A DNA stretch of 32,000 nt from contig OW818675.1 in NCBI GenBank assembly GCA_942493095.1, positions 660,001 to 692,000 of the forward strand, in the 5' to 3' direction. Every line of letters begins with the position of its first letter. Within the stretch, counting starts at the first letter, position 1. Origin of the DNA: Candidatus Electronema halotolerans (GTDB lineage: Bacteria; Desulfobacterota; Desulfobulbia; Desulfobulbales; Desulfobulbaceae). The position numbers were made by a program, and so were the translations under genes. Below are positions 1,259 through 3,862 of the stretch, in pieces. The notes beneath the pieces are model-generated. The model was not told the DNA's origin, ran no database searches, and saw only the letters and a program-made list of their open reading frames with translations.

Positions 1259-3862
1259 TTACAGACCGTCGGTCCGATAGTTGGGGGCTTCGCGGGTGAT
1301 GATCACGTCATGGACATGCGATTCACGCAGACCCGCAGGCGAGATGCGGACAAATTTGGCCTTTTGGTGCAGGTCCAAGATCGTGCTTGCCCCGCAGTAG
1401 CCCATACCGGAGCGCAGACCGCCAAGGAGCTGGTAGATCATTTCCGAAATCGGGCCGCGATACGGCACCCGGCCTTCAATGCCTTCCGGCACCAGCTTGG
1501 AAGCCTCGCAAGTCTTTTTCTGAAAATAGCGGTCGCTGGAACCCTGCTGCATTGCGCCCAAGGAACCCATGCCCCGATATCCTTTGTATTTGCGGCCCTG
1601 ATAGAGGAAGACCTCGCCTGGACTCTCGTCTGTGCCAGCAAAGAGCGAGCCGATCATGACGCAGCTCGCGCCAATGCCAAGGGCTTTGCAGATGTCGCCG
1701 GAGTATTTGATGCCGCCGTCGGCAATGATCGGAATATGGTGTTCATCCGCAACCTTGACCGCATTTTTAAGCGCGGTGAGCTGAGGCACGCCCACGCCTG
1801 CGACGATCCGGGTGGTGCAAATTGAATTATGGACAACCGCGTTGTTGACGATGAAGCTGTGGCTTGGGCAGTCAACTTCAAGGTCATAGACCGGCATGCT
1901 CAGGCCGATGGGCCGCCGCTCCAGCATTTTGACAATCTGATAATCCCCCCCTGCAACCCGCTTTTCATGGGTGACATTCAGGCGTGTCCGGTACGATATC
2001 TTGCAGCGTTCAACCGCAGTGCCCTCCAAACCGCCGACTGTCGGCTCCTCAGAGTTGCAGTTCGGAAAAGTGCCTTTGCAGAGAAAGCAGAGCACGTTGA
2101 ACAGCTCGGCAAGTTCACGCGAGGTGTTGTGAAAGCCGACCCGTCCATCCGCGCCAACCCAGCCGTCACTGTCCAAGAGGCCGTCAAAAAGACCTTGGAG
2201 ATAGTTGCGGTCAGCGCAGCGGTATTGTTCCGGCAGGTGTTTTTCATCGCGCTTGCCGAACTGGGCCAGCAGCCGCGCCCATTGCAGCGAATACAGGTGC
2301 AGGACGGTCAGATTGTCCTCGCGCTTCGCTTCCACGTCAACCCCGACAGCTCGTTCAAGGCAGCCGCGCAGCTTGGCAGCAATCTCAGACTCGGTGGCGG
2401 CAAAGTACCATGAGACCCGCCCTGTTTCCGAGTTGCGGTTCTGGGCGATGAAGGCATGGCCGTCGCCAAGGAAGGTGCCGAAAATGTAGCCGAGATCGTA
2501 GGACGGCTCAATCTCAAGTCGATAGCGTTCCAACTGCTTTTCCTTGCCGATGGCGAACTGGCGCAGATCAATGGCGAAGGTCTCCGGCAGATCAAAGGCG
2601 ATTTGCTGGGGCATCAGACAGGCCGCCTGAGCAACGTCGCCGATCTTGCGCCAGCCGATTTTGCCGTCGCCATTTCTGGTCGGCTGGGCAAGTGCCGCAG
2701 CATAGCCCCTGGATGAGACCGTGTCGGGTGACATGGACGAAAGATCGCCGACATAATAGGGATGATCCGCAGTGACCACCGTCTCATCAAACCAAGCCGT
2801 GTGCCGGAGGGCCATCACCTCGCGTGTGCCTGTACACCAAGACTTGACAACATCGACCGGCTGACCGTGCATGTTGATCACCCGGTCGCCTGCCCTGACC
2901 TGCTCAATGTTGCGGTAGGTGCCGTCAGCCATCAGCACCCGCGCCCCGGCGGCAAAGCAGCCTGGCCCAACGCCGACCTTGACCGCATTGGCCCCGGCCT
3001 CAATCAGGGCGGCAGTGCCTTCGGCAGTGGCGACATTGCCCGCAATAACAGGCAGGTCCGGCCAAGCGGCCCGCACCTCGCGCACTGCCTGCAAAACCCC
3101 GGCTGAATGGCCGTGGGCCGAGTCCAGCACGATCACATCCACGCCTGCTTGGACCAAGGCTTCAGTGCGGTCGGGCATGTCCGCGCCCACACCAATGGCC
3201 GCGCCCACCAGCAGCCGTCCGCTGCTGTCCTTGGCCGCCAAGGGATAGCGTTTGATTTTTTCAATATCCTTGATCGTAATCAGGCCCTTGAGGTTGTTGG
3301 CCTCATCCACCACCAGCAGCTTTTCAATCCGGTGCTCGTGGAACAAGGCCTTGCAGTGGTCCAAGCTGATGCCCTCATGCACCGTGACTAAATGCTCGCT
3401 GGTCATCACATCTTTGACCAGCAGGCCTTCGCCGGAGACAAAGCGGAGGTCGCGGTTGGTGACAATGCCTGCCAGCCTGCCTTCCCGGAGCACGGGCAGC
3501 CCGGAAATGCCAAAAGATGCCATCAGGGCTTCAGCCTCAGCCACAGTCTGATCTTCCGTGACCGTGACCGGATCAACGATCATGCCAGATTCTGACTTTT
3601 TGACCCGCCGCACCTCTCTGGCCTGATCCTCAACCGACATATTTTTATGGACAATGCCGATGCCACCCTCTCTGGCCATGGCAATGGCGGTCTGATGCTC
3701 GGTCACTGAGTCCATAGCTGCTGCAACTAACGGAATGTTGAGCATGATGGTGTCAGTGAGTCGGGTGACAAGGGAAACTTCGGAAGGAAGCACGTCTGAG
3801 GCGGACGGGACGAGCAGGACGTCATCAAAGGTGTAGGCAGGTGGTATGTCCTGGTCGAACAT
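1259..3862 (-). CDS. guaB: IMP dehydrogenase precursor (867 aa) containing a 378-aa intein; exteins 301 + 188 = 489 aa
   Basis: The N-terminus reads [22 protein letters not shown] and is followed by tandem CBS region and DSAHGHS. The catalytic loop is split as KVGVGPG | intein | [15 protein letters not shown]. The C-terminus has [24 protein letters not shown] and YRGMGS. The gene lies directly upstream of guaA on the same strand. Confidence 0.95.
1826..2959 (-). mobile_element. Class-1 intein with LAGLIDADG homing-endonuclease domain inside guaB (residues 302-679)
   Basis: Codon check: 2957-2959 is TGC (Cys1), 1826-1828 is AAT (terminal Asn), and 1823-1825 is TCA (+1 Ser). Block A is [13 protein letters not shown] and block B is TADH. 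The LAGLIDADG motifs are [15 protein letters not shown] and [16 protein letters not shown]. Block F is [17 protein letters not shown] and block G is VVHN|S. Confidence 0.9.

What the first reader, a model, noticed from the sequence alone, without database searches (positions are those of the whole stretch)
1826..2959. Complete LAGLIDADG intein inserted two residues before the catalytic cysteine of IMP dehydrogenase
guaB encodes 867 aa instead of about 489. The N-extein ends ...KVGVGPG and the C-extein starts [15 protein letters not shown], so the universally conserved GPGSICTT catalytic loop is split.

The 378 intervening residues have every canonical splicing element. These are Cys1 ([13 protein letters not shown]), TxxH (TADH), block F ([17 protein letters not shown]), and a terminal HN followed by +1 Ser. 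There are also two LAGLIDADG motifs, which implies a still plausible homing endonuclease.

An unspliced precursor cannot form the active site, so de novo GMP synthesis (guaB-guaA operon) depends on protein splicing. The classic bacterial intein hosts are replication and repair proteins (DnaB, DnaE, RecA, RNR, GyrA/B). A core nucleotide-metabolism enzyme is less usual. I cannot verify from memory whether this insertion site has already been catalogued.
Basis: partly seen in the sequence, partly recalled or inferred. Interest (0 to 1): 0.7.

Follow-up and report, generated by a model that had tools for sequence, protein, structure and literature searches.

The report
LAGLIDADG intein in guaB (IMP dehydrogenase)
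The IMP dehydrogenase gene of this Desulfobulbaceae bacterium is interrupted by a complete self-splicing intein with a homing endonuclease; the element is real and looks functional, but it belongs to a family already common in sequence databases, at an insertion site known since 2009.

Summary
ORF 1259-3862 (-) encodes an 867-aa GuaB. Residues 302-679 (window 1826-2959) are a 378-aa insert between GVGPG and SICTT. Removing it gives a gap-free 489-aa IMPDH, 92% identical to intein-free GuaB of close relatives.

The insert has every class-1 splicing residue (Cys1, T63xxH66, D359, H367, H377-N378, Ser+1) and two LAGLIDADG motifs with their acidic residues (D166, D265). The AlphaFold model (pLDDT 92) matches intein-endonucleases (TliVMA, PI-SceI) and I-DmoI.

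It is not a new kind of thing:
- The split intein IMPDH-1 (2009) sits at the same GxG|SIC junction and splices experimentally.
- Contiguous relatives, all at this site, occur in at least 129 species-representative genomes of at least seven phyla.
- 26 viral contigs carry it at the equivalent site, at least two in GMP reductase genes.

Within Desulfobulbaceae the distribution is patchy. The endonuclease domain is under purifying selection (dN/dS about 0.11). Against one relative, synonymous divergence in the intein is lower than in the exteins, which points to past lateral homing.

Verdict: a genuine, probably active intein and a new member of a known kind, in a new host lineage. Interest is modest.

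The parts
1259..3862 (-). guaB precursor ORF, 867 aa (IMP dehydrogenase with intein)
   Evidence: ORF; TIGR01302 IMP_dehydrog 594.8 bits (cut-off 481.5), matched in two stretches; Pfam IMPDH 520.8 bits and two CBS domains
2960..3862 (-). N-extein, GuaB residues 1-301, ending ...KVGVGPG
   Evidence: aligns without gaps to intein-free GuaB P0121/L002
1826..2959 (-). Intein, 378 aa (precursor residues 302-679)
   Evidence: Pfam Hom_end_hint and LAGLIDADG_3 above cut-off; AF2 pLDDT 92.3; Foldseek top hits are intein-endonucleases; 154 homologues, nearly all in IMPDH-family proteins; every junction the fragments retain is at this site
2921..2959 (-). Block A: [13 protein letters not shown], with Cys1 as the N-terminal splicing nucleophile
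   Evidence: C1 invariant in the intein-only alignment A2; phmmer match to the PI-SceI N-terminus
2762..2773 (-). Block B: TADH (T63, H66)
   Evidence: T63, D65 and H66 invariant in A2
2456..2494 (-). LAGLIDADG motif 1: [13 protein letters not shown] (putative catalytic D166)
   Evidence: G161, L164, G165, D166, G167 invariant in A2; helix 154-166 in the model
2159..2203 (-). LAGLIDADG motif 2: [15 protein letters not shown] (putative catalytic D265)
   Evidence: G260, L261, S264, D265, G266 invariant in A2; Pfam LAGLIDADG_3 covers precursor residues 557-588; helix 251-264 in the model
1844..1894 (-). Block F: [17 protein letters not shown] (D359, H367)
   Evidence: D359, E361, H367, S368, F369 invariant in A2
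1823..1843 (-). Block G plus +1 residue: NAVVHN|S (H377, N378, then Ser+1 of the C-extein)
   Evidence: N373, V376, H377, N378 invariant; HN|SIC junction in every one of the 76 genome loci where the C-terminal junction could be read
1259..1825 (-). C-extein, GuaB residues 302-489 plus stop, starting SICTTR. The catalytic Cys codon is at 1817-1819.
   Evidence: Pfam IMPDH stretch 680-851
1..1229 (-). guaA (GMP synthase), 5' part; starts 29 nt after the guaB stop and runs off the window
   Evidence: GATase 146.6 bits; same gene order in the intein-free relative L002

Best explanation
This is a mobile class-1 intein with an embedded double-motif LAGLIDADG homing endonuclease. It sits in the catalytic-cysteine loop of GuaB in a Desulfobulbaceae bacterium (a relative of cable bacteria).

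Inferred splicing mechanism, from the canonical residues:
1. The 867-aa precursor is translated.
2. Cys1 makes an N-S acyl shift at the G301-C302 bond.
3. The hydroxyl of Ser+1 attacks the thioester, forming a branched ester.
4. Asn378 cyclises, helped by H377 and H367, and releases the 378-aa intein.
5. An O-N shift restores the native GPG-SICTT loop, giving an active 489-aa IMPDH.

Inferred mobility: the free intein, acting as a monomeric LAGLIDADG enzyme (D166, D265), cuts intein-less guaB alleles at the highly conserved DNA that encodes GxG|SICTT. Recombinational repair then copies the intein in.

Shown here: the anatomy, seamless exteins, conservation of all splicing and endonuclease residues, the predicted fold, family membership, patchy distribution, and purifying selection. 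Inferred only: actual splicing and actual cleavage.
For: - Exact in-frame insert and seamless 489-aa extein.
- Pfam Hom_end_hint and LAGLIDADG_3 above their cut-offs.
- All block A/B/F/G residues and both LAGLIDADG aspartates are invariant across the family.
- AF2 model pLDDT 92.3, pTM 0.90. Best PDB matches are the TliVMA intein 7qsu (E 9e-17, TM 0.68/0.70), PI-SceI, PI-PfuI and I-DmoI.
- The 120 listed intein hits are almost all IMPDH-family proteins, and every junction these fragments retain is at this site. All 80 genome loci kept are open reading frames; 76 show both junctions at this site and 4 show only the N-terminal one.
- The same GxG|SIC junction supports efficient splicing by the unrelated split intein IMPDH-1 (PMC7090010 supplement; PMC11168065).
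- Homing signature: the 120 best extein matches are all intein-free. Within the clade, the intein-free L002 (92.4% extein identity) lies between the carriers L115 (96.3%) and L114/L004 (about 88%).
- Across phyla the intein is as conserved as the exteins: 54-73% against 51-72%.
- dN/dS in the endonuclease domain is about 0.12 against both L114 and L115.
- Window vs L114: dS of the intein is 0.62 against 1.06 for the exteins, 0 of 500 bootstraps reversed.
- GC and GC3 of the intein equal those of the exteins, so it is long resident or came from a similar donor.
Against: - No experiment: splicing and DNA cleavage are inferred from sequence and a predicted structure.
- Standard models barely see it. 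Hom_end_hint scores 32.5 against a cut-off of 32.1, LAGLIDADG_3 scores 23.8 against 22.5, and no NCBIfam intein-terminus model hit it.
- Close relatives carry decayed copies: L115 has an in-frame 25-aa deletion and L004 an 80-nt frameshifting deletion of LAGLIDADG motif 1. The endonuclease is therefore not maintained in every lineage.
- The dS contrast rests on one pair and is close to saturation in the exteins.
Confidence: 0.88

Rival explanations
1. The intein still splices but its endonuclease is now inactive. It persists only because any imprecise deletion in the catalytic loop of an essential enzyme would be lethal.
For: - Decayed endonuclease regions occur in the nearest relatives: L004 has an 80-nt deletion of motif 1 and L115 an in-frame 25-aa deletion.
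- A more distant family member, P0068, has a degenerate endonuclease (FLSNDH, DEGK).
- This is the expected late stage of the homing cycle, as discussed in PMC4760082.
Against: - In the window copy both LAGLIDADG motifs, D166, D265 and the invariant KHLP segment are intact.
- dN/dS of the endonuclease domain is 0.116-0.117, similar to the splicing domain.
- The intein dS is lower than the extein dS against L114, which suggests transfer after the hosts diverged.
Confidence: 0.25
2. The intein has been co-opted as a conditional switch. Splicing, and therefore GMP synthesis, would respond to redox state, thiols, metals or temperature, for example through a disulfide between Cys1 and the catalytic Cys at +3 or another intein cysteine.
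For: Circumstantial only. Cys1 lies next to the reactive catalytic Cys in the precursor. Several cysteines (C42, C364) are conserved in the family. The host lineage lives in redox gradients (named extein relatives are Ca. Electrothrix and Desulfobulbus). Purifying selection on the whole intein is about as strong as on many host genes.
Against: No data bear on regulation. Most close relatives do without the intein. The family is scattered across unrelated ecologies and viruses, which fits a selfish element.
Confidence: 0.06
3. The 378 residues are a normal non-splicing subdomain of this GuaB, or an assembly chimera.
For: None found. Considered only because many database relatives are annotated simply as 'IMP dehydrogenase'.
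Against: - The insert splits the invariant GPGSICTT catalytic loop.
- All close GuaB homologues are 486-490 aa without it.
- It carries every intein block and folds as a Hint domain plus a LAGLIDADG domain.
- An identical 4,106-nt stretch exists in a Logan assembly of run ERR9670067. Related full-length alleles exist in other metagenomes (L114, L115).
Confidence: 0.01

Closest known systems
IMPDH-1 split intein (GOS metagenome 'fractured genes'; Dassa et al. 2009, PMC2677866; characterised in PMC7090010 and PMC11168065)
   Same: Same host enzyme family and the same insertion point. Its native junction is GGG/SIC; here it is GPG/SIC. Both use Cys1, Ser+1 and a terminal VVHN. Splicing at this junction has been shown experimentally for IMPDH-1.
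   Different: IMPDH-1 is naturally split (about 101 + 40 aa), with a free-standing Vsr-like endonuclease gene between the halves. The window element is contiguous (378 aa) with an internal LAGLIDADG endonuclease. Sequence similarity is only generic: 26% over 73 aa (E 4e-5) and 11 of 23 residues at the C-terminus.
Uncharacterised contiguous IMPDH/GMP-reductase inteins in public genomes (for example Roseithermus sacchariphilus MEBiC09517, Deinococcus pimensis DSM 21231, Thiocystis minor DSM 178, Kofleriaceae MAGs)
   Same: True family members: 54-74% identity over the full 378 aa, the same junction, the same length (375-381 aa), and the same invariant splicing and endonuclease residues.
   Different: Host lineage. 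None of the 80 best genome loci is from Desulfobulbia, and the closest genome copies (Kofleriaceae, Myxococcota) are 73-74% identical. I found no paper describing these contiguous inteins in the searchable library.
PI-SceI (yeast VMA1 intein) and archaeal VMA inteins (TliVMA, PhoVMA; PDB 1vde, 7qsu, 7qst)
   Same: Same bipartite architecture: a Hint splicing domain interrupted by a two-motif LAGLIDADG endonuclease. These are the best structural matches (E 9e-17 to 1e-12), and the N-terminal 40 residues align by sequence.
   Different: Different host protein (V-ATPase subunit A) and only 12-18% sequence identity. No orthology is implied.
Ribonucleotide reductase inteins next to the thiyl-radical cysteine (NrdA/NrdJ)
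   Same: An intein in a nucleotide-metabolism enzyme, inserted directly beside the catalytic cysteine (described in PMC2677866). The logic is the same: target the most conserved DNA of an essential gene.
   Different: Unrelated host fold and a different intein lineage. This is an analogy only.

Membership tests
Class 1 intein (Hint-fold protein-splicing element) | In-frame insertion in a conserved host protein; removing it restores a colinear, gap-free host sequence | tested here: met
   The spliced sequence is 489 aa, with an ungapped alignment to intein-free GuaB at 92% aa and 80% nt identity
Class 1 intein (Hint-fold protein-splicing element) | Block A nucleophile (Cys/Ser1) and block B TxxH | tested here: met
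   C1, T63, H66 are present and invariant in the family alignment
Class 1 intein (Hint-fold protein-splicing element) | Block F Asp and His, block G penultimate His plus terminal Asn, and a +1 Ser/Thr/Cys | tested here: met
   D359, H367, H377, N378, Ser+1
Class 1 intein (Hint-fold protein-splicing element) | Hint (horseshoe beta) fold | tested here: met
   Predicted only: AF2 pLDDT 92.3; Foldseek hits to solved inteins with probability 1.00
Class 1 intein (Hint-fold protein-splicing element) | Autocatalytic excision and extein ligation | not testable with these tools
   Needs expression with SDS-PAGE or mass spectrometry. Indirect support: host catalytic residues are retained and the whole gene is under purifying selection
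LAGLIDADG homing endonuclease (two-motif, monomeric) | Two LAGLIDADG helices, each ending in a conserved acidic residue | tested here: met
   FLGDG (D166) and LDSDG (D265), invariant in A2; Pfam LAGLIDADG_3 scores 23.8 against a cut-off of 22.5
LAGLIDADG homing endonuclease (two-motif, monomeric) | Pseudo-dimeric alpha-beta-beta-alpha-beta-beta-alpha fold | tested here: met
   Predicted model matches I-DmoI structures (E about 2e-6, target TM 0.6-0.68) and the endonuclease domains of PI-SceI and PI-PfuI
LAGLIDADG homing endonuclease (two-motif, monomeric) | Sporadic distribution with intein-free alleles in close relatives (homing signature) | tested here: met
LAGLIDADG homing endonuclease (two-motif, monomeric) | Site-specific cleavage of the intein-less allele | not testable with these tools
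   Needs purified protein and a cloned target
IMPDH/GMP-reductase catalytic-loop intein allele (GxG|S-x-C site) | Insertion between the Gly of GxG and the Ser two residues before the catalytic Cys | tested here: met
   Window GPG|SIC; IMPDH-1 GGG/SIC; 76 of 80 genome loci with both junctions readable and 26 viral loci are at the same site
IMPDH-1-type split intein ('fractured gene') | Intein split into two genes with a free-standing Vsr-like or GIY-YIG endonuclease between them | tested here: not met
   A single continuous ORF with an internal LAGLIDADG domain. It shares the site with IMPDH-1 but not the architecture or close sequence
IMP dehydrogenase GuaB (host protein) | Equivalog HMM above cut-off, a CBS pair, and the catalytic Cys loop | tested here: met
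   TIGR01302 scores 594.8 bits against a cut-off of 481.5; two CBS domains; GPGSICTT is restored after in-silico splicing

The most novel reading that the evidence does not exclude
The intein is more than a passenger. Because Cys1 is placed against the reactive catalytic cysteine loop, splicing could be conditional (redox, thiol or metal sensitive). De novo GMP synthesis in this relative of cable bacteria would then be gated after translation by the intein. A weaker but better supported version: one intein family is moving between bacterial guaB and the paralogous guaC of large phages and giant viruses through the shared catalytic-loop DNA target, and was still homing among Desulfobulbaceae after these lineages diverged.
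Probability: 0.07. Interest if true: 0.7.

Novelty: new member of a known kind. Interest (0 to 1): 0.3.

Why it matters
- **Annotation.** Current HMM libraries barely detect this family. Many database copies are labelled plain 'IMP dehydrogenase', or are split into 'hypothetical protein' fragments. A dedicated model would fix hundreds of gene calls.
- **Biology.** The locus adds a sulfate-reducer and cable-bacteria lineage to the hosts of a cross-phylum, cross-virus intein family. It also gives a compact natural series for studying the homing cycle in an essential metabolic gene: intact, in-frame-deleted, frameshifted and empty alleles.
- **Tools.** A contiguous, well-conserved intein that tolerates a G/S junction may interest protein engineers, since the split intein at this site (IMPDH-1) is already among the fastest in use.

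None of this changes current understanding of inteins.

Tried and rejected
- **Literature on contiguous guaB/IMPDH inteins.** Searches found only the split IMPDH-1 and tool papers. The main texts of the large surveys (PMC4760082, PMC5784728, PMC10710043) do not mention IMPDH, and their supplements are not held. The JBC 2012 paper on IMPDH-1 kinetics is not held. The Trichodesmium 'IMP dehydrogenase' hit concerns a group II intron, not an intein.
- **NCBIfam.** No dedicated intein model hit the insert. It matched only intein-containing RNR, RNA polymerase A'' and radical-SAM models, weakly.
- **Cultured phage and plasmid collections.** Only remote inteins (<32% identity; a 47% match covers only 51 residues of a non-intein protein) in helicase, primase and terminase genes, so no vector was identified there.
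- **Source genome.** It is not among the GTDB species representatives scanned (best match 74%). Host identity rests on extein similarity to Desulfobulbus and Ca. Electrothrix.
- **Foreign composition.** Rejected: GC and GC3 of the intein equal those of the exteins.
- **Class 3 intein.** The conserved 'WCT' at residues 41-43 prompted the idea. Rejected because Cys1 and block F Asp359 are present.
- **Rfam and tRNA scans.** Only a tRNA-Ala nearby.
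Full report
**1. The observation**

The window has a single long ORF at 1259..3862 on the minus strand, 867 aa. 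My translation places a 378-residue insert at residues 302-679. That is window 1826-2959 (-), exactly the coordinates in the finding. The junctions read ...[10 protein letters not shown]|[13 protein letters not shown]... and ...[13 protein letters not shown]|[10 protein letters not shown]....

The flanks are IMP dehydrogenase:
- NCBIfam TIGR01302 scores 594.8 bits (cut-off 481.5), matched in two stretches that stop and restart at the insert.
- Pfam finds IMPDH plus two CBS domains.

Deleting the insert gives 489 aa and restores the GPGSICTT catalytic loop. The catalytic Cys is at +3 from the splice site. guaA (GATase domain, 146.6 bits) begins 29 nt downstream at 1229 (-) and runs off the window.

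**2. What the insert is**

Pfam places Hom_end_hint at 302-340 and LAGLIDADG_3 at 557-588. Both are just above their gathering cut-offs. phmmer against PDB sequences aligns the first 40 residues to PI-SceI.

An alignment with homologues (A1, and A2 trimmed to the intein) shows the following residues invariant:
- splicing residues C1, T63, D65, H66, D359, E361, H367, H377, N378
- both LAGLIDADG cores, G161/L164/G165/D166/G167 and G260/L261/S264/D265/G266
- a KHLP segment (K240-P243)

AlphaFold2 with this alignment gives pLDDT 92.3 and pTM 0.90. Foldseek against the PDB returns:
- intein-endonucleases first: TliVMA 7qsu (E 8.7e-17, TM 0.68/0.70), PI-SceI, PI-TkoII (2cw7), PI-PfuI
- then the free-standing LAGLIDADG enzyme I-DmoI, matching the middle domain

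So the element has the full anatomy of a class-1 intein with a two-motif LAGLIDADG endonuclease. Splicing and cleavage themselves are inferred, not shown.

**3. The host and its intein-free alleles**

The in-silico spliced GuaB was searched against the large protein collection. The best 120 hits are all 486-490 aa (one 539 aa), hence intein-free. Three unnamed sequences reach 92% identity; Desulfobulbus sp. TB and several Candidatus Electrothrix reach about 83-85%. The host is therefore a Desulfobulbaceae bacterium.

The 92% relative (GCA_026645415.1, locus L002) has the same gene order: glutamine cyclotransferase, guaB, guaA. Its guaB aligns to the spliced window gene without a gap at 80% nt identity. 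The empty site reads GGTCCTGGT|TCAATTTGC; the window has GGGCCAGGC|TCAATTTGC.

GC and GC3 of the intein (0.588 / 0.704) are the same as those of the exteins. There is no compositional sign of recent foreign origin.

**4. The family**

Searching with the intein alone gave 154 proteins at E <= 0.001; the best is 61% identical. Nearly all of the 120 listed are IMPDH-family proteins, most of them fragments. Every junction they retain is GxG|C... or ...HN|S-x-C.

*Species-representative genomes.* A scan of 185,579 genomes found 129 loci. The hosts span:
- Myxococcota (Kofleriaceae, 73-74%, the closest)
- Planctomycetota
- Chloroflexota (Ktedonobacterales)
- Actinomycetota (Gaiellaceae, Iamiaceae, Thermoleophilia)
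- Deinococcota (Deinococcus pimensis DSM 21231)
- Rhodothermota (Roseithermus sacchariphilus)
- Gamma- and Betaproteobacteria (Thiocystis minor DSM 178, Thiodictyon)

All 80 loci kept are uninterrupted ORFs. In the 76 where both junctions could be read, the intein sits at the same site and is 349-381 aa long, nearly always 375-381. None is from Desulfobulbia. Identity of these inteins to the window copy (54-73%) is as high as identity of the very conserved exteins (N-extein 51-62%, C-extein 60-72%). That is not expected for a purely vertically inherited selfish insert.

*Viral contigs.* IMG/VR holds 29 related loci at 25-44% identity (one further hit covers only the last 24 residues). They lie on contigs up to 405 kb and on giant-virus MAGs. 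In 26 of them the intein is at the homologous site of short, CBS-less enzymes. The two I tested fully are GMP reductases (NF003470, about 500 bits against a cut-off of 397).

*Exhaustive search.* phmmer over 1.84 billion cluster representatives finds 142 clusters at E <= 1e-30. Most are 700-760 aa with the intein starting near residue 180, the GMP-reductase type. A minority are 860-880 aa, the GuaB type.

**5. Prior knowledge**

Dassa et al. 2009 reported IMPDH as a then-new intein host: three metagenomic loci with a split intein and a free-standing Vsr-like endonuclease (PMC2677866). The native junction of that intein, IMPDH-1, is GGG/SIC (PMC7090010 supplement). This is the same insertion point, and it splices quickly in vitro (PMC7090010, PMC11168065).

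The IMPDH-1 sequence is only generically similar to the window intein: 26% over 73 aa at the N-terminus and 11 of 23 residues at the C-terminus. The two share a site, not a recent ancestor.

Nucleotide metabolism (COG category F) accounts for 21.7% of bacterial intein hosts in Novikova et al. 2016. The host class is therefore not unusual. I found no paper describing the contiguous LAGLIDADG-containing IMPDH inteins. They are nevertheless plentiful in databases, and JGI's pipeline already labels one 'IMP dehydrogenase/GMP reductase/intein/homing endonuclease'.

**6. Dynamics within Desulfobulbaceae**

Close relatives were found in metagenomes:

| Allele | Intein state | Extein aa identity to window |
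|---|---|---|
| L115 | present, in-frame deletion of intein residues 75-99 | 96.3% |
| L002 | absent | 92.4% |
| L004 | present, 80-nt deletion between short direct repeats; removes LAGLIDADG motif 1 and shifts the frame | 88.4% |
| L114 | present, full length, 88% intein aa identity | 87.9% |

L114 and L004 are 96.1% identical to each other in the exteins. An intein-free allele therefore sits between two groups that carry the intein.

Nei-Gojobori estimates:
- Window vs L115: dS is 0.51 in the intein and 0.49 in the exteins. This fits co-divergence.
- Window vs L114: dS is 0.62 in the intein and 1.06 in the exteins, with 0 of 500 bootstraps reversed. The intein copies appear younger than the host split, as expected from lateral homing.
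- dN/dS is 0.11 for the whole intein and 0.116-0.117 for the endonuclease domain. The endonuclease has been under purifying selection.

Caveats: these are single pairs, extein dS is near saturation, and the method is simple.

**7. Mechanism and rivals**

The best explanation is a functional splicing element whose endonuclease is, or was recently, active. The mechanism is the canonical four-step class-1 pathway, followed by LAGLIDADG-mediated homing into the conserved catalytic-loop DNA.

The main rival is that the endonuclease is now dead in this copy. The decayed relatives favour this; the intact motifs and low dN/dS disfavour it. A regulatory (conditional splicing) role cannot be excluded but has no positive evidence. 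A non-splicing subdomain or an assembly artefact is excluded by the data above. In addition, an identical 4,106-nt stretch occurs in a Logan assembly of run ERR9670067.

**8. Verdict**

The element is a new member, in a new host lineage, of a known and widely distributed but little-described intein family at an already catalogued insertion site. Interest is modest (0.3).

Noticed in passing
L116:2243-3487 and L117:1524-2768 (protein P0090), next to L116:1097-2152: A 414-aa free-standing ORF is clearly derived from this intein family. Both LAGLIDADG motifs are intact, but position 1 is Gly, the TxxH block is gone, and the C-terminus is HS rather than HN. It lies 90 nt downstream of an uninterrupted 351-aa GMP-reductase-like gene whose site reads GSGAGCKTR. 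It occurs in two independent runs (ERR9649163, ERR12177251). It looks like an intein turned into a stand-alone homing endonuclease beside its former host gene, comparable to yeast HO (the HO comparison is from my own knowledge).
   Followed up: partly
L004:1237-1248 (JGI 3300049828, Ga0499993_0003392): A guaB allele 96% identical in its exteins to the intact L114 has an 80-nt deletion between short direct repeats (ATTTT[C/G]GGCA). The deletion removes LAGLIDADG motif 1 and frameshifts the gene. It is either a dying allele or population variant, or an assembly error.
   Followed up: partly
L115:66-2588 (Ga0316592_1002334): The closest relative of the window gene (exteins 96.3% aa) carries the intein with a clean in-frame 25-aa deletion (intein residues 75-99, between Hint-N and the endonuclease). 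This may be a natural step toward a mini-intein.
   Followed up: partly
L085-L111 (IMG/VR contigs, several >200 kb, and GVMAG giant-virus bins): The same intein family (32-44% identity) sits at the homologous catalytic-loop site of viral CBS-less IMPDH-family genes. The spliced L089 and L096 products score as GMP reductase (NF003470, about 500 bits). The family therefore spans two paralogous host enzymes, and both cells and viruses.
   Followed up: partly
Proteins P0031 (Iamia sp. SCSIO 61187), P0044 (Deinococcus multiflagellatus), and many JGI entries: In public annotations, intein-containing guaB genes are often truncated, split, or named 'hypothetical protein'. The genome DNA of the family members I examined encodes intact precursors. 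This looks like a systematic annotation gap.
   Followed up: no
window 4898-4973 (-): tRNA-Ala (GGC), 63.5 bits in Rfam. It lies just upstream of the glutamine cyclotransferase gene that precedes guaB.
   Followed up: yes
window 5997-9005 (+): A 1002-aa ORF combines a Peptidase_M1 domain, a ChaN/Tiki-type haem-binding domain (195 bits) and a C-terminal PDZ domain. This is an unusual fusion.
   Followed up: no
window 19230-22032 (-): Two adjacent ORFs (410 and 527 aa) both carry DUF202, one of them with an MshEN domain. They lie downstream of a HAMP histidine kinase gene, and their function is unclear. The 510-aa ORF at 23115-24647 (-) has no Pfam match at E <= 1e-5.
   Followed up: no
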